DNA of 64,000 nt, from the sequence record OM867527.1; one strand, given 5' to 3'. Below are positions 3,977 through 63,642 of the stretch, piece after piece. Below the pieces are notes generated by a model. It did not search any database, was not told where the DNA came from, and saw only the letters and a list, made by a program, of their open reading frames with translations. Position 1 is the stretch's first letter; every line of letters begins with the position of its first letter. The translations under genes and the position numbers were made by a program. The stretch comes from a phage.

Positions 3977-5923
3977 ATGAGTCAGATAACATGGCGTAAT
4001 GTTGATGCACCTAACTTCTCCGGAGTTGGTGACAGCATTCGCACATTTGGCAACATGATTGGTAACGCCACCTCCGGCTTAAGTGATGCACTGGGTAATT
4101 TCCAGAACGCTGCCAAGCAGGAGGCTGGCAATGCCGTCATGATGAATGCTATGCAGTATCAAGACCCTACTGAATACCGTAATGCTCTGGCATCCGGTGC
4201 ACTGTTTCAGGGGGTTGACCCTTCATTGGTAAGTCAGCGTACTCTTCAGAATCTGGATGAGCGAGCAGGTACTCTTCTGACTCAGCAAGGTCAGCAAGGA
4301 ACCAATGACTATAATGCTTATAACTTTGGTCGCTTAAAGGATGTTAACTCTGCATTGGATAATGCTTCTCCAGCTATTCGATTGCTGTCTGAGGCTTATC
4401 AGTCAGGCGACCAGAATCGTATTAATGCTGCATTAGGTCAAACCCGTGAGGCATTATCTACACTTCCTGCTGACCAACAGTTAGATTTGCTAGGACGTCT
4501 ACAAGGACAGGGTGGTGCAGCTATTAATCAGGCAACTAATCGCTTTGACCTTAACGTGCGTCAACGTAATGATGCTGATTCACAAGCTGCATCCGGTGTA
4601 CTGACGGATATTTTCCGTAGTGCTTCTACGCCTATGGATGCTCTTACACTGGCAGAGTCTGCTATGCAGAATGCTTCCCCAGGTGTACGTGCTGCAATCA
4701 TGCGAGGTGTTAACGAGAGATTCCCGGGTACTTACGCTACGTCTTCTTCTGGCTCTGCTCCTGGAACTGCTGGTACTCGTTCTGGTTCTCCTTATGATGC
4801 AACTTATACCTTTGCTGCTACTGATAAGCCTATTACTGAGATGACACTGGGAGAGGTTACTAATCATCAGCAAACTATGATTAATAACCCGTCACAAGGT
4901 CATTCTCCTGTGGGTGCATTCCAGATTAATAAAGCTACTCTGGAAGACTATGCTCCTAAAGTACTTGGCTCAGATTGGCGTAATCAGCAAATGACTCCTG
5001 AAGTACAGGATAAAATTGCTGAAGCAATCTTTAATGACCGTAAGAGTGGTAACCTTTCTAAGACCTGGGCTGCATTACCTGACTTGGGTGTGGGTGGTTA
5101 TAAGGATATGCCTTGGAGTGAAGCACGTCAGTTAATTGCACAGGCAGAAGTAGGTGCACCTCTTGATCAGCTACAGACCCAGCAAGTAGTCTCAAACATG
5201 GCAGGCAATACAGTTGCTGCACGTCAGTCTGAAGATAACACTGGAACTATTACTGCTAACTATGCTCGTGCATTACGTGATAACTCTACCATTGGTGAAG
5301 TAGCAGACCGTCTTCTTAAGGATGCTTTCAAAGGTTCTGAGAAAGGATGGATGATTGCTCGGCTTAATGATGTTATGCAGGAATCCGGGCAGTCTCCTGC
5401 TGTAGCTGCCGAGATTCTTAAGCAATCTACTACCAACGTACCAGAGGGTATGATTAGTCGAGCACTCGATGCACTTAACCCATTCATCTCCAATGAGGGT
5501 GGTGGTGGTATTCGTATTGACGATACCGTTGCCAGAGAACTAGCACGTTCAGTACGACGTGGGGAAGGTATTGAAGCTACTGCTCGTGATAATGTTCTTA
5601 CTCAGGTACAGGGTAATATTGCTAACGCTCAGAACCAGGTAAACCAAGCAGAAGCCTTGCTTGCTGATACCCGTCGTCGTGTAGCTGCTGGGCAAAGTGG
5701 ACTTGCTGCTACTATACCTGCTCGTGAGGCTGAGTTAGTAAGAGCACGTGCTGCACTAGATGCTGCTGTTAATACTGTAGTAGCTAATCAAGGTAACCTG
5801 GTTCCACAGAACTTCCGTTCTAATGCTTCAGTAGAGCGTGAGCGTAGTCGTGAAGATGAAGAACGAGCTAAACGTTATCGAAAATTAGCAGAGGGTTTAC
5901 CTCCCTATATGCAACCTCGATAA
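3977..5923 (+). CDS. Virion/internal protein (648 aa), possible lytic-transglycosylase-like segment
   Basis: RBS aggaaa then ATG 3977. Central segment (TEMTLGEV...SPVGAFQINKATLEDYA) loosely resembles the catalytic Glu and GLMQ-type motif region of lysozyme-like transglycosylases; this is motif-level inference only. Confidence 0.4.
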   Translation: MSQITWRNVDAPNFSGVGDSIRTFGNMIGNATSGLSDALGNFQNAAKQEAGNAVMMNAMQYQDPTEYRNALASGALFQGVDPSLVSQRTLQNLDERAGTLLTQQGQQGTNDYNAYNFGRLKDVNSALDNASPAIRLLSEAYQSGDQNRINAALGQTREALSTLPADQQLDLLGRLQGQGGAAINQATNRFDLNVRQRNDADSQAASGVLTDIFRSASTPMDALTLAESAMQNASPGVRAAIMRGVNERFPGTYATSSSGSAPGTAGTRSGSPYDATYTFAATDKPITEMTLGEVTNHQQTMINNPSQGHSPVGAFQINKATLEDYAPKVLGSDWRNQQMTPEVQDKIAEAIFNDRKSGNLSKTWAALPDLGVGGYKDMPWSEARQLIAQAEVGAPLDQLQTQQVVSNMAGNTVAARQSEDNTGTITANYARALRDNSTIGEVADRLLKDAFKGSEKGWMIARLNDVMQESGQSPAVAAEILKQSTTNVPEGMISRALDALNPFISNEGGGGIRIDDTVARELARSVRRGEGIEATARDNVLTQVQGNIANAQNQVNQAEALLADTRRRVAAGQSGLAATIPAREAELVRARAALDAAVNTVVANQGNLVPQNFRSNASVERERSREDEERAKRYRKLAEGLPPYMQPR

Positions 5924-6026: not shown

Positions 6027-9000
6027 ATGTCAACATTTGACCGTCTGGCAGGTTTCGCAGACAGCATCACTACTGCTAAGCAAGTCGATGTCTCTACTGC
6101 AACCTCTCGGAAACAAGCTGAACAAGGGCAAAACCCTTTCCAATTAACTCCTCAGAACGCTTACCAATTACAGGCAGGCCGTGCTGGTAACTTAGGTGCT
6201 GGTGCATTTGACCCAGGATCTATTCAGGCAGATTTTACTAATGCCTCCCCTCTTGAAATCATAAATAAGTATGGCAATGAGCAAGGAATGGGCATTCTCA
6301 ATGCTCGTGTCAATGCAGCTAATGCTGTTCGTCGTGATTTAACTAAGAGTCGTACATATGGTGAAGCACTTGGTGATACCCTTTCTGGTGTTGGTCTTGG
6401 TGTTGCTAATACCCTTGGGGGCATTGCTGCTCTTGGCACAGGCTTGGTCAATGATAATGCCGGGGCATCCATTGCTTCCGGTCTTGACTGGTTGAATAAA
6501 GGAGTACACAACCTACAGTCTGATGCACTGAATGCTCGCCGTAATGTAGTACAGAACCAGAACGTAATATCTGCTCAGGAAAACGAGAAACTCTATAAGC
6601 AGGATATTGATAAAGGAGAGAGTGAACTCGTTGCTTCTCTGTCTCGTATTGGGCGTGATGCTTATGATTCTGTTGCTAACACTTTGTCCAATGGCATGGC
6701 TGCTACAGATGGTCTGGCTGAAGGCGTTGGTTCACTGTTTACTGGTGGTCCACTTATCCGTGGTGTATCTGCACTTGGTAAAGTAATGGTAGGTGGGGAT
6801 AAAGCTGTTAAGGGCATTACCTTAGCTGCTGAATTAGGTTATCGTCCTGCACGTATTGCACAGACTGCTGGTCGTGTTGCTGCACCTGCTATAGCAATTG
6901 GTGGTATGGAAGCTGGTGGTGCATACCAACAGACTGCCAATGAAATTATGGAAATGCCATTCAGTGAACTGGCTGCTAAATCTCCTGTATACCAACAGCA
7001 TATTAAAGACGGTCTGTCTCCGGAAGAAGCACGTCGTCAGACTGCATCTGAAACGGGTATCACTGCTGCTGGCTTAACTGCTCCGGTTGCTGCTCTTACT
7101 GGTCCACTGGTATCTAAGTTTGAACTTAACCCACTCAAAGTAGGTTCACTGGCTGGTGCTGGTTCTAACATGCTGCGTGAGACTGTAGAAGAGGGTATCC
7201 AGTCTGGTACAAGCCAGCTTGCACAGAACAAGGCAATTCAAGGTAATGTAGATGCTAAACGTGATTTGCTTAAAGGTGTGGGTGAACAAGCTGGTCTTGG
7301 TGCATTGTATGGCTTTGGTTCTGCTGGAGTTGCTCAAGCTCCTGGTGCAACTGTTAAGGCTGCTGGTGCTGCCGTTGGTCCTGTTGTACGTACTACCCTG
7401 GCTGGTGCTTCTCTGGCTGGTAAGGCACTAGCAAAAGTAGCTTCCCCTATTACTAACATTCTGGTTCAACGTGGGGAAGAAGTTGCTAAGCGTAATGAAC
7501 AAGCATCCCCTGTATCAGACGCTACGGTTAATGCTGCTGCACAAGAAGCTACTGCTCAGGCAGAACAAGCACAAGCAACTGTTCAGGAAGCAGTAGATGC
7601 AATGGATATTTCTCCTGAAGAGAAAGCTGCTGCTACCCAGTATGCTGCTGACTTAACTCAGGCAATGAAGTTTGGCCCAGTAGAACTGGAACAAGCTAGT
7701 CCAGTAATCCGTGAAGCTGTTTCTGGTTCCACTAACCGTGTTGAAGCTATTCAGAAGATGGCTGACCTGGTTAATACTGCTGAAGACCCTAACGTTCAAA
7801 TGGAAGCTGCAATCCAGATGTATGACAACATCATGTCTATGGATAGCTTCATTAACCGTGACCCAGGTGCATTAGCTAATCTGGAACAAGGTTCTCCTGC
7901 TGCTAATATTGTTGACCAGTTCTCCGGCCTGATGGCTAACGTTCAGAATACACCTAAGGTGCTCCGTGCATTCCGTGCTATCCATTCCATGATTCAGGAA
8001 CAGGCAGAAGCAGGTAAACTGAAAGCTACTGAAGAAGCTAACCAAGCCCAGGCAAATAATATTGCTATGGCTGCTGATATGTCTCCAGAAGTACTGGATG
8101 CAGACTCAGTGAACATGGTTCTGAAACATGCAAGTGAAGGTAAGATTACGCTGGGGAATCGTCAGCGTGCTGCCCTGCAATCTGCTGCTGCTCTATTGCA
8201 AGGAGCACGAGAATTTGACGCTAAAGCAGAAGAACTGGGCTTACGTCCTCAAGACATTGTTAGTAAACAGATTAAAACCGACGAATCTCGTTCTAATGAA
8301 GGCCAGTACTCTGCGTTGCAACATGCTAAACGCATTCGTTCTGCGTACAACTCTGGTAACTTCGATTTGGCTTCCGCTTATCTCGACGACTTTATGAAGT
8401 TCGCCCAGCACATGCAGAATAAGGTCGGAGCGTTGAATGAGCATCTGATTTCGGGGAATGCGGATAAGAATAAGTCTGTCCATTATCAGGCTCTTACCCC
8501 CTCCCGTGAATGGGTACGTAGTCGTACTGGCCTCGGTGTCAATCCGTATGATACCAAGTCTGTTAAGTTTGCCCAGCAAGTAGGACTGGAAGCCAAGACC
8601 GTAGCTGATATTGCTAACGCACTTGCTACGGCTTACCCGGAGCTTAATGTTTCTCATGTGAAAGTTACCCCATTGGATTCACGTCTGGACAAGCCTGCTG
8701 CTCAGGTAGTTAAAGAGTTCCGTCAGGGCAATCTTGATGCTGCTCAATCCCAACAGACCAATGAACCAGTGAATCAGGTTGATGAAACTCCTGTTACGAA
8801 ACAGGAACCAGTTACCCCTACTGTACAGACTAAACCTTCTGTTAGTGAAGCTGTTAAAACAGAACCTACTATTAAAGAGTCTAAACCACAGACTGTAAAA
8901 GAACCTGAGAACCAGTCTGAAAAACAGGATAATGTTGATCAGTCTACTGAATCTGAAAGAGATGCTTATGTGAAAGAGAATACTATTTCACAAGATACTC

Positions 9001-12000
9001 TTAATAAGTACGGTGACCGTAAAGAGAGTCCTTGGCTTTTTGCAGATGGTACTGTTGTTGGTTCCAATGGTGACCACATTAGCCTGTCTGATGTATTTGG
9101 TCATGATGGTTATCGTGATATGTCATTAGATACAGGTGCTATTCGCTCTACCTTCTACAAAGGAAGCGAGCAACCATTTGTATCATTGCAACTGTTTGAT
9201 AATCAGAAACTGACTACTGAACAATTCAATACTGTTCAATCATTCGTAGAAGCAAACAATGCACTGATTCAGGTTGGTGTAGATACGTCTGGACGTAATA
9301 CCAATAATGTTGAGAAGCAAGAAGTATCACTGGCTCAACTGAAAGCAGACTATACAGTTGGTGGTAAACCACTCTCTGAGATGGAAACAGTGTTCCCTGT
9401 CTATAACAACGAAAAAACACCGAACCAGTTCCTTAAAGCATTTTCTCTACCAGAAGAACCTAAGTCCCGTACCATTGGTTCTGAATCCCCTTTGACTGAT
9501 GTTAAGAAAGCACTGTCTTCTGCTGCCCGTTTCGAAGCATTCACTCAAAAAGAAAATAACGCTCTCACAAGTGATGTGATTAAGCGTTATCAGGACTTAA
9601 TGGGGTTTGGTGAAACTCTGAAGACTACTTTATCTGATCGTCTGGCTAAGTTCCTTGCTAACAAGAATGTTGGTAAACGTTTTGCAGAAGGTACTGAGGC
9701 TAACCGCTGGGTAGGTGGTAAGTTACTTAACATCGTTGAGAAAGATGGCGACACCTTTAAGTTCAATGACCAATTGTTAGAGACTGCTGTACTTGCTGGT
9801 TTGCAATGGCGACTTACTGCTACCCAGAATGCTGCTGTTAAAGACATGAAAGGCGTAGCTGCCATTACTGGTGTGGAGGCATCCTTGTTACCTGAAGGTA
9901 TCCTTGCAGAGTTTGAGAATGCTCAGACCCTGGTTGAAGCTACTAACTCACTGGCTCAAAAGATTGAATCCTATTGGGGTTTGAATCGTAATCCTAATGC
10001 ACCTCTTGGTTATACCAAGGGTATCCCAATGGCAATGGCTACAGAGATTCTGTCTTCTCTCATTGAGATGGGTGAAGTTAAAGAGTCCATGCTGGATGTG
10101 TCTGAAATTGATCCAGAATCTAATAAGACTGTTGGTCTGTATACCATTGAGAAGTTAGATGATAACGATGCCATTAACAAATTCCCTACTGCTATTGAGG
10201 AAGCTGTCCTCCTAGAACCAGAAGAGAAGATGTACTTTGGTGATGACATTCCTTCCGTGGCTCAAACTCAGTTACGTAACCCAGCTGTTAAGAATACCCC
10301 GGAACAGAAAGCTGCTCTTAAAGCTGAGCAGGCTACTGAGTTCCATGTACATATGCCGATGGTTAACTTCTATGAAGCATTGGGTCGTGACAACATTCTG
10401 GAGCTGATGGGTGCTGGTGCTCTTAATCCTGAACTACTGAATGTGAATACCGCTAAATCTCTGGAAGGTAAAAACCTGTCCGTGTCTATGGCATATGATT
10501 CCTTGTTTGGTGTAATCAACCAGATTAAGGAACAAGAGAATGGTTTGGATACACCTATTCACTACGGTTACAACATGACCCGTGTAGGTCGTATGCAGAT
10601 GCTTGGTAAGAACAACCCACAATCCAGCAAGCTGGTACGTGAAGCAATCCTACCAACTTTCTCTACCATCGACTTAAGTAATGAAAACAGTCAAACGTTC
10701 TCTGACTTCCAGCTTGGACTGGCTCAGGCATTGGGTATCAAAGTTCATAAAATGTCCCGTGAAGTTATGTCGGATGAGCTGACTAAAGCTCTGGAAGGTA
10801 AATTGAAACCTGCCGTTGATATGATGGTTGAGTTTGATAAGTCTGGGCACTTACCTACTGATGCTGTGGATATTCTGAAGACCTCTTTGGGTAATGATAA
10901 ATCATTTGTAGCTCTCATGGCTCTGATGGAGTATGCCCGTTACTTGAACAGTGATGACCGTGCTAACTTTAATACCCCACTGTACGTTGAAGCTGATGGT
11001 GTAACCAACGGACCAATCAACGCAATGGTATTAATGACTGGTGGTAAGTTCACTTCAGATTGGATTAAGAATACTGCTAAAGGTGGTTTGTTCTTCGGTA
11101 AAGCTGGCAAGACTATGAACGAGCATCATTCACATGAGGATAGTGTTGACCTGTATGAAGCATCCACTAATAGCCTACAACAGGCACTGAACGAATTACG
11201 TAATACTTATCGTAACAACGTTCCTGTTACGAACCAGATGAAGCATCTCCAGAAGTTAATGGACCTATTCATTAAAGACTTCAATCTTAAGGAAGATGGT
11301 ACTCTGGACCTGAAACGCGGTATCGCTAAAAACCCACTGACTATCACCATCTACGGTTCAGGTGCTCGTGGTATTGCTGGCAAGATGGTAAGTGCAATTA
11401 CTGATGTCATCTATGAACGCTTCAGTGACGTTCTGCAAGCCCGTGCTGCTGACCCTAGCATTTCCCCGGCTATGGCAATGTTTGGTAAGGAGGCTGCATC
11501 TGAAGCTGACGCTCAGGCTATGCTGGATACTTTCCTTACTTCTATGGAAGCACTGACTGGTAATGTTCCGGTTATGCGTAAAGGCGAGCTGTCTATTCAG
11601 CAGGTAGAAGGTGCTCTGACCGGTAAATTAGACCCTCAGAAGTTTACTGTATCCGGTAATGCTCTGAAGAACTTACAAGAGAACATGCTTCACTTGTTCG
11701 TTGAGCCAATGCGTACTGGTATCCGAAATACTGTTGGTGAAGGTCTGATGTACTCTACTGAAAATTTGCAGAAGGCTACTCAGATTCAATCACTGGTATT
11801 GCAGGATATGTTCCAACAGGCAGTACAGGCTAAACTGGCAGAAAAAGAAAAAGACCCAACATGGAAGAAGGGTGATTTCTTAACGCAGAAAGAACTGAAT
11901 GAAATCCAGGAATCATTATCTCCACTGGCTCCAATGATTGAGACTGGTTCCCAGACTTTCTATATTGCTGGTAGTGAGAATACTGATGTTGCTAACCAAG

Positions 12001-37515: not shown

Positions 37516-37958
37516 TAGAATGACCTTAGATAGTTGGTGATACCACTTCTCGTCTCTGTGATTCTCTTAACCTGAACGTATACCAGCTTAAACTCACTAC
37601 GAGGTAGTTCTTGTAATACTGCTACACCTTCAGTAAGAGCCACAGAACACGCTACAGCGGTTTCTTCTTTAAAGGAGTACAAGTCTTCATACATGAGGGC
37701 TTCATACTCTTTACGGAGCATACAGAGAGCATTTCTTGCCTTATCACTTACTTCTTGTGAACCAGCAGATATAGCTAAGCTGTATATGATAAAGACTTGT
37801 TCAAAAACAAAGTCCAGTAATCTATCAGGATTGTTAGTCCCTATGAATAATTTTGTTGTGTAGGAACGAGCTTTACGATTGAGTTCATACTCATCCTCTA
37901 TACCTTTCTTATAAAGAACATGGCTTCGTTCTCTTTTTCTTAGGAATGGGATACGCAT
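37515..37958 (-). CDS. Hypothetical protein (147 aa)
   Basis: Reverse ORF; start and stop coupled to the neighbouring genes. Confidence 0.4.
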   Translation of the reverse strand: MRIPFLRKRERSHVLYKKGIEDEYELNRKARSYTTKLFIGTNNPDRLLDFVFEQVFIIYSLAISAGSQEVSDKARNALCMLRKEYEALMYEDLYSFKEETAVACSVALTEGVAVLQELPRSEFKLVYVQVKRITETRSGITNYLRSF

Positions 37959-38356
37959 TAGTATTTACTACCTCTTCTATACCAGGGGTAGTGATGGGTA
38001 GTGCTCTTACTTTTAAACACATCCTTAGTACGAGGATTCTTTTGTATTTGAGCCAGATAAAGTTGTGTAACATCACCACACGGGTTAAGCCAGAACTTAT
38101 CTATGATTCGGTCTACCTTAGATTTCAAATGTGGTTCTGGGGAAACGTAAGTTTCAACAAATACCTGTCTACCTGACCATCCATTAGCTAATGTTTGTTT
38201 CATCTTGGAGAGCGTATTCTCCAGACTCATTAAATCAAACTTAGACTCAGTAATATCTACCGAGTCATGAATTCCTGCGTGTGCAATTAGTCTTTCTTCC
38301 AGTTTACTAAAGTCCAAATCATGTAGGACTGATTTACCTCGTCTATTTTGAAACAT
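37958..38356 (-). CDS. Hypothetical protein (132 aa)
   Basis: Reverse ORF. Confidence 0.4.
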   Translation of the reverse strand: MFQNRRGKSVLHDLDFSKLEERLIAHAGIHDSVDITESKFDLMSLENTLSKMKQTLANGWSGRQVFVETYVSPEPHLKSKVDRIIDKFWLNPCGDVTQLYLAQIQKNPRTKDVFKSKSTTHHYPWYRRGSKY

Positions 38357-38370
38357 AACAGTACCTGTAA

Positions 38371-38398
38371 TTAAAAAAGCCCACGGGTTAGGTGGGCT
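38371..38398 (-). terminator. Rho-independent terminator (minus strand)
   Basis: Minus-strand reading: AAGCCCAC-CTAACCC-GTGGGCTT followed by TTTTTT. Confidence 0.55.
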
Positions 38399-38471
38399 TG
38401 GGTTAGGAGATGGATAAGCAATGAGCTGGAAGTAACTTCCAGAAGTACCCTCTTAGGGATACTTCGGTTAG

Positions 38472-38750
38472 TTACTCTGCTTTACTGCCACCATTGGTTT
38501 GTACAACAGTTACATTAGTAACCTGGTTCTGACCTTTGTTGGACAGTGACCAAATCAGTGCTACTACCCAGAATACTAGTGACCAGCCTAATACGATATT
38601 AAGCACACCAATGCCCCACTTAGAGGCATGGCCTCGTGAGAAAGCAATGATAGTAGGGATAAGGTATACAGCTAATATGAATAAGAAAACAAGGATTGCT
38701 GCTAAAGATTCCATGATGGTTCCTATGTGGGGTTGAGTTAGTTTCTTCAC
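38472..38750 (-). CDS. Superinfection-immunity-like two-TM membrane protein (T4 Imm-like family)
   Basis: Two TM helices with the pattern LIPTIIAFSRGH...VLNIVLGWSLVFWVVALIWS, matching the family signature as I recall it (PTIIA-x-R-x-H ... LGW ... ALIW). Confidence 0.55.
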   Translation of the reverse strand: MKKLTQPHIGTIMESLAAILVFLFILAVYLIPTIIAFSRGHASKWGIGVLNIVLGWSLVFWVVALIWSLSNKGQNQVTNVTVVQTNGGSKAE

Positions 38751-38787
38751 AAATAGCCCAACTATGCTGGGCTATTTAGGCAGCTAC

Positions 38788-38997
38788 TTACTCAGCATCT
38801 TTGCTTGCAGGAGCAAGAGCTTTCTTCAGGTAATTACGTACCGAACGATAGGTTTCTTTGGTGTCCATAGTACTATCATTTACGAATGTGATACGTGCAC
38901 AATCAGACAGTGGAATCTGTTCCACTCCTACTACATTTGCAGCATTAATGGTTACACGTACATCTGAGGTTGCATGAGTTACTTGAAATACTGACAT
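38788..38997 (-). CDS. Hypothetical protein (69 aa)
   Basis: Short reverse ORF. Confidence 0.35.
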   Translation of the reverse strand: MSVFQVTHATSDVRVTINAANVVGVEQIPLSDCARITFVNDSTMDTKETYRSVRNYLKKALAPASKDAE

Positions 38998-39006
38998 GTT
39001 GTTTCC

Positions 39007-39513
39007 TTATTTACTTTCTTTAGCTTTTACTGGTTTATCCGGTTGATTCATGTACTTGCCATTGTAATTAGCAGGTTCCTGAACCAGATGAAATAATACT
39101 TGAGCTATCCCAGCACCAGCCGGGATATGCAATTTCTTACGACCATGATAGACCAATTCAAGGGTAAGATATCCTTTCCATCCTGGTTCTATTACGGTAT
39201 TGAACACTGATAATGCGCGTCTTGCCCATGTAGACTTATCGTGAACGATAGCTACACAGGACGGAGACATGTTGAACTTCTCAATTGCTGAAGCCAATGT
39301 GAACTTACCGAAATGGTGTGATACTTGATTTCCATCAACGACTTTCACCATTGGAATCAACCCAAATAAGCGATAGAAGGTAATATCTTGTTTGATACGA
39401 ATATCATAACCAGCTTCCCCCAATCCATAGCTTACACCGTGTTCGGATACCTTACGGTCTGGAACATCCAGCAATTGGGATGAACGATATAGAGAATTAC
39501 CGTTAACAACCAT
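39007..39513 (-). CDS. dCTP deaminase/dUTPase-superfamily protein
   Basis: GYDIR and NTVIEPGWKGYLTLEL...GAGIAQVLF resemble the dCTP deaminase beta-barrel motifs. Confidence 0.5.
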   Translation of the reverse strand: MVVNGNSLYRSSQLLDVPDRKVSEHGVSYGLGEAGYDIRIKQDITFYRLFGLIPMVKVVDGNQVSHHFGKFTLASAIEKFNMSPSCVAIVHDKSTWARRALSVFNTVIEPGWKGYLTLELVYHGRKKLHIPAGAGIAQVLFHLVQEPANYNGKYMNQPDKPVKAKESK

Positions 39514-40721
39514 TATTTCATTCCTTTAGGGATATGAACTACCTCCCCAAAAGGTACGGTAGCATTAGGATTATTCAGAACACACCAGATGATAGGAATA
39601 TCAAATGGCAATTCTTCCATTGGACGAACATACATATCAGAGAATATGATTGCAGCGGTTGGCTTATTCTTAATAATCCACTCGCGTACTGGTTCTAGGT
39701 TTGTACCACCACGACCAGTAATCTTAATCTCTTCGAAAGTATCTTCTTCAGTGATGTCTATTTCTTCTTGAATAATATCGTCAAAGGTAATTAAGGACAT
39801 CTTCTTAGGATTGAACTGGCTCTTAACGTAGGCAACCTCTGAGTTAAAACGTAGAGAGTCAGCACTACTAATAGAACCAGATACATCTTCAAAGTAGGCT
39901 AAGTGTCGTAGACGTCCTTCATCATCTTCCAGTGAAGGTAGATAGATGTCAGTGTAACGACGGTTAGGTCTGGCCCACGTATAGTGAGTGTCATTAATGT
40001 CGGTAAAGAAGTTCATGAGAACTTCCTGCCATGGAACCACTGGCTTAAGGAATTGGGTAATAACCTCTTCCATACGACCAGCACCTTTACCGGGCATCTG
40101 TCCACCAGCCATCTTCTGGCTCTGCATTGCACGTACTACGTTGTTGACAACAGCACCCTGGGACTGCCCCGAAGTGGGGGATTTCATGTCGCCAGCAAGA
40201 CCTGCTCCAGCACCCCCCGACGGCTTCTGCCTTTTCTGGGGGTTCTTCATCAGGTCATCGTAGATGTCTTCTTCAACCCATCCTTTATATTGAGGGTCTT
40301 TGCAAATGCCTTCATCGATACCAGTGAACTTGTAACCATCCTCTTCTAACTGAAGGTTAATGAAGTGGTCACACGCCTGGTTCCAGACTTCTGGGTCACG
40401 GCTTCCACGACGAATGTCATGTAGATATGCCACATGCCATAGTTCATGCATTAATACTGTTTCTCTTGCATCTGGACACATCCAGATAAAGAAATCAGGG
40501 TTGAAATGGAGTTCTATCCCATCAGTACATGCAGTGGGGCAATCCTCACGTTTCCATGAGAATTTAAGGCTACACAGTAATGAACCAAAGAACGCAGCAC
40601 TGCGTCCTAGGAAAGCCTGAGCCTGAATACGGTCATACTCACGCATGAGTTGTTCATCACTAAGTGTGTGCTGAGGAAATTGGTTCATGTTGTGATTATC
40701 CGTGAATGTAACGAGAGACAT
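39513..40721 (-). CDS. VWA-like domain protein with HExxH-like metallopeptidase-type motif
   Basis: LMHELWHVAYLHD (HExxH) in the N-terminal half; overlaps the upstream AAA+ gene by 26 nt, implying co-translation. Domain identity is from recollection of the VWA/DUF2201-type family; needs an HMM check. Confidence 0.45.
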   Translation of the reverse strand: MSLVTFTDNHNMNQFPQHTLSDEQLMREYDRIQAQAFLGRSAAFFGSLLCSLKFSWKREDCPTACTDGIELHFNPDFFIWMCPDARETVLMHELWHVAYLHDIRRGSRDPEVWNQACDHFINLQLEEDGYKFTGIDEGICKDPQYKGWVEEDIYDDLMKNPQKRQKPSGGAGAGLAGDMKSPTSGQSQGAVVNNVVRAMQSQKMAGGQMPGKGAGRMEEVITQFLKPVVPWQEVLMNFFTDINDTHYTWARPNRRYTDIYLPSLEDDEGRLRHLAYFEDVSGSISSADSLRFNSEVAYVKSQFNPKKMSLITFDDIIQEEIDITEEDTFEEIKITGRGGTNLEPVREWIIKNKPTAAIIFSDMYVRPMEELPFDIPIIWCVLNNPNATVPFGEVVHIPKGMK

Positions 40722-43961: not shown

Positions 43962-45179
43962 TTAACTTAATGCATAGTCTGTTTCAAGAATGTCCTGCCA
44001 GAGGCTGTCATCCAGCTTACCAGCAGAGAACTCTTGCCCCAGTACCTGAGACAGAATGAAGCCCAGCAGGTCACTCTTAGCAATGTCAGACAGAATCTGA
44101 TTGTACTGACGACGTAAGTCGTTACCGTAGTTAGGATGGCAACGGAAGCAGTCATGTACAGTCATTACAGGGAATGGCTTCTTAGGCAAAGTATTGAGCA
44201 TAGTTAAGATTACATCTGTATCTACCAATGCAATGGTTTCTGAATCCAGGTAATCAAAGATACGGGTAGACAGGAATCCAGACTTCTTATAACTAGTCCA
44301 TAATGTATTAACCATTTCATGGCTAGCACCTGGGACAACTATGTATTCACTGGTTCCCTCACAGAGGGACTTAATATAGTTCACCTGGTTCATGTTGAAG
44401 TTACAACGACGCAGCATCTCACGTACCACCATTCCATCAATAGAGTGAGTGATGTTAGCAGAGAGCATACGGGTCTTTTCTTCAGTACCCTGAACCATAC
44501 GAGTGATGTCGAATGGCTTACCTAAGAAGTTAACAGTCTGTACCTCTGGAACCATGACCTTAATGACAGCATGGAAGTTGTCAGGCAGTACCCATATGTA
44601 ACGGTTGGCATCAGGGTTACCACATTGCAGTAAGAACTTGTTGAGTGCCCAAGGACCACTAGCAACAGTTTCCATTACATTCTCAAAAGTCTTGAGACGA
44701 ATACCTTCACCGAATACCTCTTTAGGCTTGGCTTCTGAGCCGTAGAATGCAGTCATAACAGCCTGCTTAGTGTCACTACGTTTAATACGTGATGCTTCAC
44801 CAAGGATGTCCAGCATCTTATGATAGATGACTGTATAAGCATCACGGCGTAATGGTTTACCATTCTCACCCATGTAATTAACTACGTTACACAGTTCAGC
44901 AGCAGAACGGTCACCGGTCAGACAGGCCAGTAACTGCAAGCCTGATGATGTAGCATCCAGAGCTACGGCATAGCCAATAGGCTTACCTGCTTTCATATCT
45001 TTCCATGCGTTTACACCAGCAAAGAACAGAGCAGAATCTTCAGCTTCATCTACCAGATTAAGCAGGTTAGCTTCGTTCTCATCGAACCAGGCAATACGTT
45101 CATCCCATGTCTTCTTATCTAAGCCATAGTTATTAGCAATATCTACTTTCAGGTATTCTTTAGCGGTTAACAGTTGCAT
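43962..45179 (-). CDS. Phage RNA polymerase II, large (catalytic C-terminal) subunit, T7-like
   Basis: Motif B RSDTKQAVMTAFYGS (RxxxKxxxxxxxYG), motif C TVHDCF, and C-terminus ILETDYALS comparable to the T7 RNAP C-terminus. Size (405 aa) matches the N4 RNAP II large subunit. Confidence 0.8.
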   Translation of the reverse strand: MQLLTAKEYLKVDIANNYGLDKKTWDERIAWFDENEANLLNLVDEAEDSALFFAGVNAWKDMKAGKPIGYAVALDATSSGLQLLACLTGDRSAAELCNVVNYMGENGKPLRRDAYTVIYHKMLDILGEASRIKRSDTKQAVMTAFYGSEAKPKEVFGEGIRLKTFENVMETVASGPWALNKFLLQCGNPDANRYIWVLPDNFHAVIKVMVPEVQTVNFLGKPFDITRMVQGTEEKTRMLSANITHSIDGMVVREMLRRCNFNMNQVNYIKSLCEGTSEYIVVPGASHEMVNTLWTSYKKSGFLSTRIFDYLDSETIALVDTDVILTMLNTLPKKPFPVMTVHDCFRCHPNYGNDLRRQYNQILSDIAKSDLLGFILSQVLGQEFSAGKLDDSLWQDILETDYALS

Positions 45180-62442: not shown

Positions 62443-62772
62443 ATGAATGAATCGGGTGAACTGCTTCTAGTCAGACTGGAGGAACGATTGAAGACTCTGT
62501 TTGATAACCAGGCAAGAGACAGACAGGACCGTGAGAAACTGGAGGAAACTCTGGTAGAACTACGGGATTCAATCAATGACATAGGTAATAGACTAAAGAA
62601 TGTGGAGGATAGTTTAGCTAAGAATGAACCTACTATTGAAGAGTTCATCACCATTAAGCATAAAGTTGTTGGTGCTGGGATTTTTGGTAAGTGGGTATGG
62701 GCTGGTGCAGGTGCAATTATTGGTGTATTGGCTGCTGCAAGACGGGAGATATTCGCATGGTTCGCAGGCTAA
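62443..62772 (+). CDS. Lysis-associated protein with coiled-coil N-terminus and C-terminal glycine-zipper TM (holin or antiholin candidate)
   Basis: Charged helical N-terminal region followed by VVGAGIFGKWVWAGAGAIIGVLAAA; first gene of the lysis cassette. Confidence 0.4.
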   Translation: MNESGELLLVRLEERLKTLFDNQARDRQDREKLEETLVELRDSINDIGNRLKNVEDSLAKNEPTIEEFITIKHKVVGAGIFGKWVWAGAGAIIGVLAAARREIFAWFAG

Positions 62773-63017
62773 AAAGAAAGGTAGAGTTAGTACCAAACTG
62801 GAAAAGATGCTGGAAGTGGGCATCTATTCAGATTAGTACGCTTGGGTTAGTTCTGTTTTCTGCTATAGATATCATTCAACCAATGCTGACAGGGTTACCC
62901 CGTCACATCCTGGAAGATATTCCTCATGGTTCCAATATTGCAATCGCACTATTTGCCCTAAACATCATTGGCAGATTGATACGATTCCGTCCAAAGGATA
63001 ATTCACATGAAAGCTAA
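62757..63017 (+). CDS. Holin candidate (two TM helices, about 86 aa)
   Basis: ATG 62757 overlaps the upstream gene's end. Predicted TMs ASIQISTLGLVLFSAIDII and NIAIALFALNIIGRLI, with a charged C-terminus. Stop overlaps the endolysin start. Confidence 0.45.
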   Translation: MVRRLKRKVELVPNWKRCWKWASIQISTLGLVLFSAIDIIQPMLTGLPRHILEDIPHGSNIAIALFALNIIGRLIRFRPKDNSHES

Positions 63018-63642
63018 ACAAAAACTTGCTGCGAAAGGTGGTGCAGTGGGAGGAGTTATCGCTGCTATTCTGGGGGCAGTGTTTTATATGGAAGGGGGGT
63101 ATGTAAACAATCCCCGTGACCCAGGTGGGGAAACCAATCATGGTATTACCCATTCAGTAGCTAAGTCTCACAAAGAAGTTCTGGCTACTGAATACGGTTG
63201 GGACGGTTCTATGAAAGGTTTATCTAAAGAGATGGCTGCTGAGATATACATTGATGACTACGTACTTAAACCCAACTTCGTAGCCTTCGCTGATATATCT
63301 CCTGCTGTAACTCACAAGCTGGTAGATGCTGGTGTTAACACTGGTGTAACCCGTCCTGCTAAGTGGTTGCAGTTATCTCTTAATGAGATGTCCCGTAATG
63401 GCAAAGACTACCCTAAAATACAGGTTGATGGTAAAGTCGGTACAAGTACTGTTAATGCATATAAAGCATTACAGAAAAAACGAGGCAAAGTTGAAGCATG
63501 TAAGGTAATGATTAAGTTACTTGATGCTAAACAACTGAACCACTACACCTCATTAAACATGCCAGACTTTACGTATGGTTGGGTAGCTAACCGAATAGGC
63601 AATGTGCCACTGGAGGCATGTAATGAAGATGCTAATCTCTAA
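63007..63642 (+). CDS. Endolysin, N-acetylmuramidase (GH108-type) with peptidoglycan-binding C-terminal region
   Basis: EGGYVNNPRDPGGETNHGIT matches the GH108 catalytic signature found in the N4 lysin family. Confidence 0.8.
   Translation: MKAKQKLAAKGGAVGGVIAAILGAVFYMEGGYVNNPRDPGGETNHGITHSVAKSHKEVLATEYGWDGSMKGLSKEMAAEIYIDDYVLKPNFVAFADISPAVTHKLVDAGVNTGVTRPAKWLQLSLNEMSRNGKDYPKIQVDGKVGTSTVNAYKALQKKRGKVEACKVMIKLLDAKQLNHYTSLNMPDFTYGWVANRIGNVPLEACNEDANL

What the first reader, a model, noticed from the sequence alone, without database searches (positions are those of the whole stretch)
38472..38750. Superinfection-immunity-like two-TM membrane protein in a lytic N4-like genome
The 92-aa protein carries the PTIIA-x-R-x-H ... 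LGW ... ALIW pattern that I associate with the T4 Imm-type superinfection immunity family. It would let infected cells exclude DNA injection by competing phages.
Basis: partly seen in the sequence, partly recalled or inferred. Interest (0 to 1): 0.45.

Follow-up and report, generated by a model that had tools for sequence, protein, structure and literature searches.

The report
T4-type Imm gene, N4-like phage
This is a real, conserved 80-residue two-helix membrane protein of the same family as phage T4's Imm superinfection-exclusion protein. It is already annotated as such in the public record of this very phage, so the finding is correct but ordinary.

Summary
The window is 100% identical to Escherichia phage HK2 (Gamaleyavirus, an N4-like podovirus). 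The ORF at 38472..38750 (-) exists, but the real gene starts at the ATG at 38714 and encodes 80 aa, not 92. That ATG has an AGGA ribosome-binding site. The upstream GTG is lost in phage ECBP1 and is out of frame in Moo19, and 87 of 89 close homologues begin with 'ME'.

Pfam PF14373 (Imm_superinfect) scores 61.9 bits against a cut-off of 27.9 and covers the full profile. T4 Imm itself scores 58.2 bits in the same family and aligns end to end at 28% identity.

The protein has two hydrophobic helices joined by a short basic loop. It is under strong purifying selection (dN/dS 0.03-0.2). It sits as 'gp27.1' between the homologues of N4 gp27 and gp28, and N4 itself has no copy. The phage's holin is elsewhere, next to the endolysin.

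Blocking genome entry by later-arriving phages is inferred from T4 only. I found no experiment on any N4-like Imm. GenBank already labels this gene 'immunity to superinfection', and a 2013 paper listed the orthologue. Verdict: already known, low interest.

The parts
38472..38714 (-). imm ('gp27.1') coding sequence, 80 aa plus stop: MESLAAILVFLFILAVYLIPTIIAFSRGHASKWGIGVLNIVLGWSLVFWVVALIWSLSNKGQNQVTNVTVVQTNGGSKAE
   Evidence: PF14373 at 61.9 bits against a cut-off of 27.9. PHROG 1039 at 1e-30. Annotated 'immunity to superinfection' in PP514361.1 at 44334-44576. dN/dS 0.03-0.2.
38715..38750 (-). 5' leader that the 92-aa ORF wrongly includes. It contains the Shine-Dalgarno AGGA at 38721-38724.
   Evidence: The GTG is GAG in ECBP1. 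The GTG-to-ATG distance is not a multiple of 3 in Moo19. AGGA is conserved.
38637..38708 (-). Transmembrane helix 1 (residues 3-26, with Pro20)
   Evidence: Kyte-Doolittle 15-residue means up to 3.1. AlphaFold helix at 2-26.
38619..38636 (-). Short basic loop R-G-H-A-S-K (residues 27-32). It holds the family's conserved R-G.
   Evidence: Charges at R27, H29 and K32. R27, G28 and H29 are invariant in 25 homologues. R-G is also present in T4 and Bp7 Imm.
38541..38618 (-). Transmembrane helix 2 (residues 33-58), carrying LGW and ALIWS
   Evidence: Hydropathy. AlphaFold helix at 33-62. W49, I54 and W55 are invariant.
38475..38540 (-). Hydrophilic C-terminal tail (residues 59-80), the variable part of the protein. 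This is the shorter of two alleles seen in relatives.
   Evidence: Predicted disordered from residue 63, with pLDDT below 50 for 67-80. Two tail alleles and a frameshifted tail in Bp4.
38751..38777 (-). Conserved hairpin AAATAGCCCAGC-ATA-GTTGGGCTATTT between the gp27 homologue's stop and imm. It is probably a leaky terminator of the upstream gene.
   Evidence: Conserved in 8 Gamaleyaviruses. Moo19 keeps an equivalent hairpin with an altered stem and loop. A hairpin occupies the same position in N4. It did not pass the terminator scan because its T-run is short.
38442..38465 (-). Hairpin 1 of the 3' untranslated region
   Evidence: RNAalifold finds 3 pairs with changes on both sides. There are only two haplotypes, so few independent events.
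38427..38441 (-). Hairpin 2, TGGAAG-TTA-CTTCCA (3-nt loop). Role unknown.
   Evidence: The stem is invariant and the loop varies across 9 phages.
38371..38399 (-). Intrinsic terminator AAGCCCACCTAACCCGTGGGCTT plus T-run, ending the imm transcript just before the gp28 homologue
   Evidence: Terminator scan hit. Invariant stem. The 3' half plus TTTTTTAATTA is 19/20 identical to the N4 gp27-gp28 spacer.

Best explanation
The gene encodes an 80-residue inner-membrane protein of the T4 Imm family (Pfam PF14373). It consists of two transmembrane helices joined by a short basic loop (RGHASK), followed by a hydrophilic, disordered tail.

It is transcribed with the nucleotide-metabolism and replication genes of this virulent N4-like phage. 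It lies on the same strand as those genes and has its own ribosome-binding site and terminator.

By analogy with T4 Imm, it most likely inserts into the cytoplasmic membrane of the infected cell. There it would stop later-adsorbing phages from getting their genome across that membrane, without blocking adsorption. This would spare the infected cell both competition and the membrane damage caused by secondary adsorptions.

Shown here: the gene, its true start, its family, its two-helix anatomy, purifying selection, and its position as an extra gene relative to N4. Inferred: membrane location, timing of expression, the exclusion phenotype and which phages are excluded.
For: Family:
- PF14373 at 61.9 bits against a 27.9 cut-off, full profile.
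- T4 Imm and Bp7 Imm score 58.2 and 65.1 bits in the same family.
- End-to-end BLASTP alignment with T4 Imm, 28% identity, E 8e-11.
- PHROG 1039 at 1e-30.
- P, A, R-G, G-I, two W and I-W are shared by all four of HK2, Moo19, T4 and Bp7.

Anatomy:
- Two hydrophobic stretches with a basic loop.
- AlphaFold helices at 2-26 and 33-62 with a disordered tail.

A real, selected gene:
- dN/dS 0.03-0.2.
- Intact in 53 phage records at 90% or higher identity.
- Present at the same gp27/gp28 junction in an N4-like contig only about 60% identical.

Context resembling T4:
- T4 imm lies between gene 42 (dCMP hydroxymethylase) and gene 43 (DNA polymerase).
- Here imm lies between the dCTP deaminase and ThyX genes, co-directional with the RNAPII, replication and rIIA/rIIB genes.

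Not the holin:
- A canonical holin (PHROG 1356 at 2.5e-30; 65% identical to N4 gp62) lies at 62757..63017, directly upstream of the endolysin.

T4 function:
- Imm and Sp block genome translocation by secondary phages without blocking adsorption. Imm is a plasma-membrane protein (PMC6832632; PMC7677548; PMC11436027).
Against: - No experiment on any N4-like Imm homologue was found.
- T4 Imm is the only characterised member I found, in a family of about 13,000 sequence clusters at 50% identity. That family includes proteins up to 348 aa, so uniform function is not assured.
[quoted passage not shown] Those are myoviruses with a different ejection apparatus from N4-like podoviruses, which eject a 3594-aa RNA polymerase.
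- T4's partner protein Sp has no homologue here.
- N4 itself does without the gene.
- How T4 Imm works at the molecular level is itself unresolved.
Confidence: 0.62

Rival explanations
1. The protein is an Imm-family membrane protein whose main role is to protect the long-lived infected cell against damage from secondary adsorptions. That would mean resistance to 'secondary traumatisation' and lysis from without, and stabilisation of lysis inhibition. It would work alongside the phage's rIIA/rIIB genes rather than mainly keeping out competitor genomes.
For: [quoted passage not shown] They show premature collapse of lysis inhibition, and superinfection 'traumatises' imm-minus infected cells (PMC6832632). 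The window carries rIIA and rIIB homologues on the same strand, a few kb downstream. It also has a separate holin-endolysin cassette.
Against: This overlaps with the main explanation, since both are phenotypes of T4 Imm, and sequence cannot separate them. The review states that rIIA/rIIB act on lysis inhibition by an unrelated mechanism. N4 also has rIIA/rIIB yet lacks Imm.
Confidence: 0.2
2. The protein is a holin-like or antiholin-like small membrane protein that takes part in the timing of lysis. Its Imm family name would then be misleading for this lineage.
For: Small proteins with two transmembrane helices are typical of class II holins. T4 Imm 'reportedly molecularly resembles a holin' (PMC6832632).
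Against: The phage has a canonical holin (PHROG 1356 at 2.5e-30; 65% identical to N4 gp62) immediately upstream of its endolysin. imm lies about 24 kb away from that cassette, among nucleotide-metabolism genes. The protein matched no holin family. Its PHROG matches were family 1039 and four families of unknown function. Its Pfam matches below threshold were not holin families.
Confidence: 0.06
3. The protein is a conserved small membrane protein with some other role, for example altering a host membrane transporter or envelope process. It would share only an ancient two-helix module with T4 Imm.
For: The family is very large and varied: 12,953 clusters at E<=1e-3, with lengths from 57 to 348 aa. 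It occurs in very different phage types: T-even-like myoviruses, N4-like podoviruses, AP22-like Acinetobacter phages, Jersey-like Salmonella phages and mycobacteriophages. Only T4 Imm has been characterised among the papers I found.
Against: This protein has the same size, architecture and conserved residues as T4 Imm over the full length. It comes from a virulent coliphage and sits in an analogous genomic context.
Confidence: 0.12

Closest known systems
Bacteriophage T4 Imm (gene imm, 83 aa; Pfam PF14373 Imm_superinfect)
   Same: Same Pfam family at a similar score (61.9 against 58.2 bits). Same size (80 against 83 aa). Both start ME[ST]L. Same layout of two hydrophobic helices with a basic R-G loop and a short hydrophilic tail. 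Alignable end to end. Both come from virulent coliphages and lie among nucleotide-metabolism and replication genes.
   Different: Only 28% identical. The host phage is an N4-like podovirus with a different genome-ejection machinery. No Sp (spackle) partner is present. The exclusion phenotype and target range are untested.
'gp27.1' / 'putative membrane immunity protein' of G7C-like phages (Gamaleyavirus: Bp4, St11Ph5, EC1-UPM, IME11, ECBP1, U1G and others) and of Moovirus Moo19
   Same: Orthologues: 90-99% protein identity within Gamaleyavirus and 68% to Moo19. Same position between the gp27 and gp28 homologues, with the same flanking hairpins. The HK2 record itself is 100% identical and annotated 'immunity to superinfection'. 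The orthologue was listed in the 2013 EC1-UPM genome paper with IPR016410 (PMC3853248).
   Different: Nothing of substance. HK2 carries the shorter of two C-terminal tail alleles, which account for 14 of the 89 homologue clusters.
Other phage inner-membrane injection blockers, e.g. P22 SieA
   Same: Inner-membrane proteins reported to block passage of incoming phage DNA (PMC11436027; PMC10883804).
   Different: I know of no sequence relationship and did not test for one. SieA was not among the family matches. SieA is expressed from a prophage, whereas imm here belongs to a virulent phage.

Membership tests
Pfam PF14373 Imm_superinfect (T4 Imm family) | Sequence match to the family profile above the curated gathering score | tested here: met
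   61.9 bits against a cut-off of 27.9, E 5.4e-17, profile 1-42 of 42, residues 16-57. The 92-aa form scores 61.4 bits.
Pfam PF14373 Imm_superinfect (T4 Imm family) | The experimentally characterised reference protein (T4 Imm) belongs to the same profile and aligns directly with this protein | tested here: met
   T4 Imm scores 58.2 bits and Bp7 Imm 65.1 bits in PF14373. BLASTP of HK2 against T4 Imm covers residues 1-74 against 1-82, 28% identity, E 8e-11.
Pfam PF14373 Imm_superinfect (T4 Imm family) | Small protein (about 80 aa) with two hydrophobic membrane-spanning stretches and a short basic connecting loop | tested here: met
   Hydropathy maxima over residues 3-26 and 34-58, with loop R27, H29 and K32. 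AlphaFold helices at 2-26 and 33-62, mean pLDDT 69.
Pfam PF14373 Imm_superinfect (T4 Imm family) | Conserved residues of the core (P, A, R-G, G-I, W, W, I-W) | tested here: met
   Four-way alignment of HK2, Moo19, T4 and Bp7. Invariant columns in 25 homologues.
T4-type superinfection exclusion system (functional class) | Location in the cytoplasmic membrane of the infected cell | not testable with these tools
   Only predicted from hydropathy and the model.
T4-type superinfection exclusion system (functional class) | Expression alone blocks genome entry of secondary phage without blocking adsorption | not testable with these tools
   No experiment on an N4-like Imm was found in the literature held.
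T4-type superinfection exclusion system (functional class) | Expressed early, from the pre-late gene block of a virulent phage | tested here: inconclusive
   The gene is co-directional with, and embedded in, the block homologous to N4 gp15-gp44 (RNAPII, nucleotide metabolism, replication). It has its own SD and terminator. No transcript data were available.
T4-type superinfection exclusion system (functional class) | Companion periplasmic protein Sp (spackle). This is part of the T4 system, not of the Imm family. | tested here: not met
   tblastn of T4 Sp against the window gave no hit at E<=0.01.
Class II holins | Membership of a holin family and a position in the lysis cassette next to the endolysin | tested here: not met
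   No holin family matched this protein. The phage's holin is at 62757..63017, next to the endolysin at 63007..63642.

The most novel reading that the evidence does not exclude
The same core module occurs in very different phage types: T-even-like myoviruses, N4-like podoviruses, AP22-like Acinetobacter phages, Jersey-like Salmonella phages and mycobacteriophages. This suggests Imm may act on a generic property or component of the cytoplasmic membrane rather than on a phage-specific ejection protein. If so, the HK2 protein could exclude unrelated coliphages such as T-even phages that compete for the same host. The variable C-terminal tail, with two alleles exchanged among lineages, might tune specificity.
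Probability: 0.15. Interest if true: 0.5.

Novelty: already known. Interest (0 to 1): 0.15.

Why it matters
As it stands, this confirms a routine annotation.

It would matter only through experiment. T4 Imm's molecular mechanism is still unresolved after decades, and no member outside the T-even phages appears to have been tested. An 80-residue orthologue from a podovirus with a very different ejection machinery offers a clean comparison. If it excludes its own kind only, Imm proteins recognise phage-specific ejection components. If it also excludes T-even phages, they act on the membrane or on a shared host factor.

For phage-therapy cocktails that mix Gamaleyaviruses with other coliphages, cross-exclusion would be practically relevant.

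Tried and rejected
1. The 92-aa GTG-initiated reading was rejected in favour of the 80-aa ATG start.
2. Spurious ORF was rejected on the HMM score, dN/dS and conservation.
3. The antisense ORF 38536..38736 (+), 66 aa, was considered. Part of this strand is annotated in PGN829.1 as 'putative membrane immunity protein'. It was rejected as an annotation artefact, because the intact minus-strand imm ORF is present in that phage too.
4. Holin was rejected; see the membership test.
5. A known defence-system component was checked. PADLOC gave no match, and NCBIfam gave only sub-threshold noise.
6. A second copy or a T4 Sp partner in the window: none found.
7. An Imm homologue in N4: none. The best six-frame HMM hit was 10 bits, E 0.03.
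8. A solved structure of a family member: none. The only PDB sequence hit is a de novo designed protein with no significant stretch.
9. A fold search of the AlphaFold model was not run. A two-helix hairpin at pLDDT 69 would give only uninformative matches.
10. Hairpin 2 downstream of imm (stem with a 3-nt loop) was considered as an N4 virion-RNA-polymerase-type promoter. This was not pursued. From my own knowledge of N4, such promoters sit at the early end of the genome and have a purine at the loop centre; here the loop centre is T.
11. The original T4 Imm papers (PMC250924, PMC237878) are not held in the library. T4 facts are therefore cited from reviews.
12. One paper's plasmid 'Imm' (UniProt Q03708; PMC10433841) was not used as evidence. 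I could not verify that it belongs to this family.

Full report
**Identity of the window.** A 1.7-kb stretch around the finding is 100% identical to Escherichia phage HK2 (PP514361.1; Schitoviridae, Enquatrovirinae, Gamaleyavirus). It is 87-94% identical to about 58 other G7C-like phages. Window position 1 corresponds to HK2 position 5863. The window encodes a 3594-aa protein that is 60-70% identical to the N4 virion RNA polymerase gp50. It also encodes the two-subunit RNAPII, rIIA/rIIB and replication genes, and has no annotated integrase. 'Lytic N4-like genome' is therefore correct.

**The observation.**
- The mechanical ORF 38472..38750 (-), 92 codons from a GTG, exists and carries the quoted residues.
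- The motif is PTIIA-FS-R-G-H, so two residues, not one, separate A and R. LGW and ALIW are as stated.
- The 5' end is wrong. On the minus strand the sequence reads ...GGGCTATTT GTG AAG AAA CTA ACT CAA CCC CAC AT**A GGA** ACC ATC **ATG** GAA TCT.... The ATG at 38714 has an AGGA six bases upstream.
- The GTG abuts a hairpin and has no ribosome-binding site.
- In a nine-phage DNA alignment, the GTG is GAG in ECBP1. Moo19 has two 2-nt deletions between the GTG and the ATG, which put them out of frame. The AGGA-N6-ATG arrangement is conserved throughout.
- The HK2 record annotates the 243-nt CDS.
- All 89 close homologues found in the large protein collection are 44-86 aa, and 87 of them begin with 'ME'.
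- T4 Imm (METL...) aligns from residue 1.
- The gene is therefore 38472..38714, encoding 80 aa.

**What it is.**
Pfam PF14373 Imm_superinfect scores 61.9 bits against a gathering score of 27.9, E 5.4e-17, and covers the whole 42-position profile (residues 16-57) (for the 92-aa form).
- I took T4 imm from NC_000866 and a T-even-like imm from phage Bp7. Both fall in the same Pfam family, at 58.2 and 65.1 bits.
- BLASTP of the HK2 protein against T4 Imm aligns residues 1-74 with 1-82 at 28% identity, E 8e-11.
- PHROG 1039 ('immunity to superinfection') matches at 1e-30.
- PADLOC has no match and NCBIfam has nothing above threshold.
- Hydropathy shows two strongly hydrophobic stretches (about residues 3-26 and 34-58). 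They are separated by R-G-H-A-S-K and followed by a polar tail.
- An AlphaFold2 model built on 25 homologues gives helices at 2-26 and 33-62 and a disordered tail, with mean pLDDT 69.
- In the four-way alignment of HK2, Moo19, T4 and Bp7, the shared core is P..(I/L)A..RG.(S/A/R)(K/S)..GI.....L..W(S/T)...W....IW.

**It is a real, selected gene.**
- Over codons 1-61, pairwise dN/dS among eight Gamaleyaviruses and Moo19 is 0.03-0.20, with dS up to more than 1.
- tblastn finds the protein in 785 of 50,697 phage records. 53 are at 90% identity or higher (Gamaleyaviruses). The remainder are mainly T-even-like Salmonella, Klebsiella and Escherichia myoviruses, AP22-like Acinetobacter phages (61-64% over the core, closer than the T-evens at about 50%), Jersey-like Salmonella siphoviruses and some mycobacteriophages.
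- A profile search of 1.84 billion cluster representatives finds 12,953 clusters at E<=1e-3 and 1,157 at E<=1e-10. Their lengths run from 57 to 348 aa. This is a very large family in which only T4 Imm has been characterised, as far as I could find.
- No family member has a solved structure.

**Genomic anatomy.**
- All neighbours are on the minus strand. In transcription order they are the gp25-like protein, the dCTP deaminase (gp26), a 69-aa gp27 homologue (38788..38997; 36% identical to N4 gp27), imm, and a 132-aa gp28 homologue (37958..38356; 39% identical to N4 gp28). These are followed by the gp29-like protein, ThyX and, further on, rIIA and rIIB.
- Records of relatives name the gene 'gp27.1', meaning it is extra relative to N4.
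- N4 has a 113-nt spacer between gp27 and gp28. It has no Imm homologue anywhere in its 70,153 bp: tblastn finds nothing significant, and the best six-frame HMM hit is 10 bits. The window has exactly one copy, at 114.7 bits.
- A metagenomic N4-like contig whose Imm is only about 60% identical has the same ATPase-gp25-gp26-gp27-imm-gp28-gp29-ThyX order. The gene is therefore old in this branch. The data do not say whether N4 lost it or the branch gained it.
- A related Imm also occurs in a 44.6-kb contig with a different gene order.
- Upstream of imm is a conserved 12-bp hairpin (38751-38777). N4 has a hairpin in the same place.
- Downstream, the 115-nt spacer holds two hairpins and a clear intrinsic terminator (38377-38399 plus a T-run).
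- The terminator's 3' half plus TTTTTTAATTA is 19/20 identical between HK2 and N4.
- imm thus looks like a self-contained cassette, with its own SD and its own terminator, set into the gp27-gp28 spacer.

**Mechanism.**
- They block genome translocation by the secondary phage without blocking adsorption. Imm is a plasma-membrane protein.
[quoted passage not shown] - By homology, the most likely account for HK2 is the same. The protein would be made before late gene expression, insert into the inner membrane, and prevent incoming genomes from crossing it. This would also limit membrane damage from secondary adsorptions. I put this at about 0.6.
- A variant in which protection of the infected cell is the main benefit gets about 0.2.
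- These steps are inferred, not shown. No T4 Sp homologue is present. The target range is unknown, and N4-like podoviruses eject their DNA together with a giant RNA polymerase by a route unlike that of T4.
- The holin alternative is weak. A gp62-type holin (PHROG 1356 at 2.5e-30; 65% identical to N4 gp62) lies at 62757..63017, overlapping the start of the endolysin gene at 63007.

**Novelty.**
- The gene is annotated 'immunity to superinfection' in the HK2 record itself. In many relatives it is 'putative membrane immunity protein', 'immunity to superinfection' or 'superinfection immunity protein'.
- The Bp4 record notes similarity to the Imm of phage JS98.
- The 2013 EC1-UPM genome paper lists the orthologue with InterPro IPR016410 (PMC3853248).
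- I found no functional study of it.
- The finding is therefore correct, already known as an annotation, and of low interest. The residual value is as an experimental handle on the unresolved Imm mechanism.

**Variation worth noting.**
- The C-terminal tail comes in two alleles. One is ...GQNQVTNVTVVQTNGGSKAE (80 aa, as here). The other is ...GQSQTTIVNVGSGNQYNVSQTSSKAE (86 aa), which is the commoner in the database: 54 against 14 clusters.
- The longer tail allele is also carried by the more distant Moo19.
- Bp4 has a 1-nt deletion that truncates the tail but leaves both helices.
- T4 and Bp7 tails also contain a short run of beta-branched residues (VIII, IIIV). This may or may not be meaningful.

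Noticed in passing
window 17618..17702 (-): An 85-nt tRNA-like sequence scores 53.9 bits with Rfam RF00005, but ARAGORN does not call it. It has 24 nt where the anticodon stem-loop core should be 11. The acceptor and T arms are identical to the annotated 74-nt tRNA-Ile of phage ECBP1, but the D arm and anticodon region differ. It is unannotated in the HK2 record. Relatives annotate tRNA-Ile, tRNA-Xle or tRNA-Val at this site. It may be a disrupted or mosaic tRNA gene.
   Followed up: partly
window 6027..16811 (+): This 3594-aa ORF is the virion RNA polymerase, 60-70% identical to N4 gp50 over its full length. The public HK2 record labels it 'DNA polymerase'.
   Followed up: yes
window 62757..63017 (+): A class II-type holin gene (PHROG 1356 at 2.5e-30; 65% identical to N4 gp62) overlaps the start of the endolysin gene. 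It is not annotated in the HK2 record, which leaves a gap here.
   Followed up: yes
window 38357..38471 (-): The 115-nt spacer after imm is more conserved than the imm tail. It holds two hairpins plus a terminator. Hairpin 1 exists as two haplotypes with three compensated pairs. Hairpin 2 has an invariant stem with a variable 3-nt loop. The terminator 3' half plus TTTTTTAATTA is 19/20 identical to N4's gp27-gp28 spacer, so it may be a combined terminator and middle promoter. No Rfam family matches.
   Followed up: partly
window 39513..40721 (-): The gp25-like protein is labelled 'HNH endonuclease' in HK2 and in PHROG 1314. However, it contains an HExxH motif (HELWH), and its orthologue on a related contig hits Pfam DUF2201_N and DUF2201, which other records label VWA-like or metallopeptidase-like. 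The HNH label looks doubtful.
   Followed up: no
L007 (Escherichia phage PGN829.1) 673..931: The intact 80-aa imm ORF is annotated there as two fragments. One of them lies on the opposite strand and is labelled 'putative membrane immunity protein'. This is an annotation artefact.
   Followed up: yes
L013 (phage N4) 7668..9092: N4 lacks Imm. It carries gp18, annotated 'superinfection exclusion, similar to P22 gp17', followed by a small membrane protein (gp19) and a lipoprotein (gp20). None of the three has a homologue in the HK2 window, so the two genera carry different accessory envelope-related genes.
   Followed up: partly
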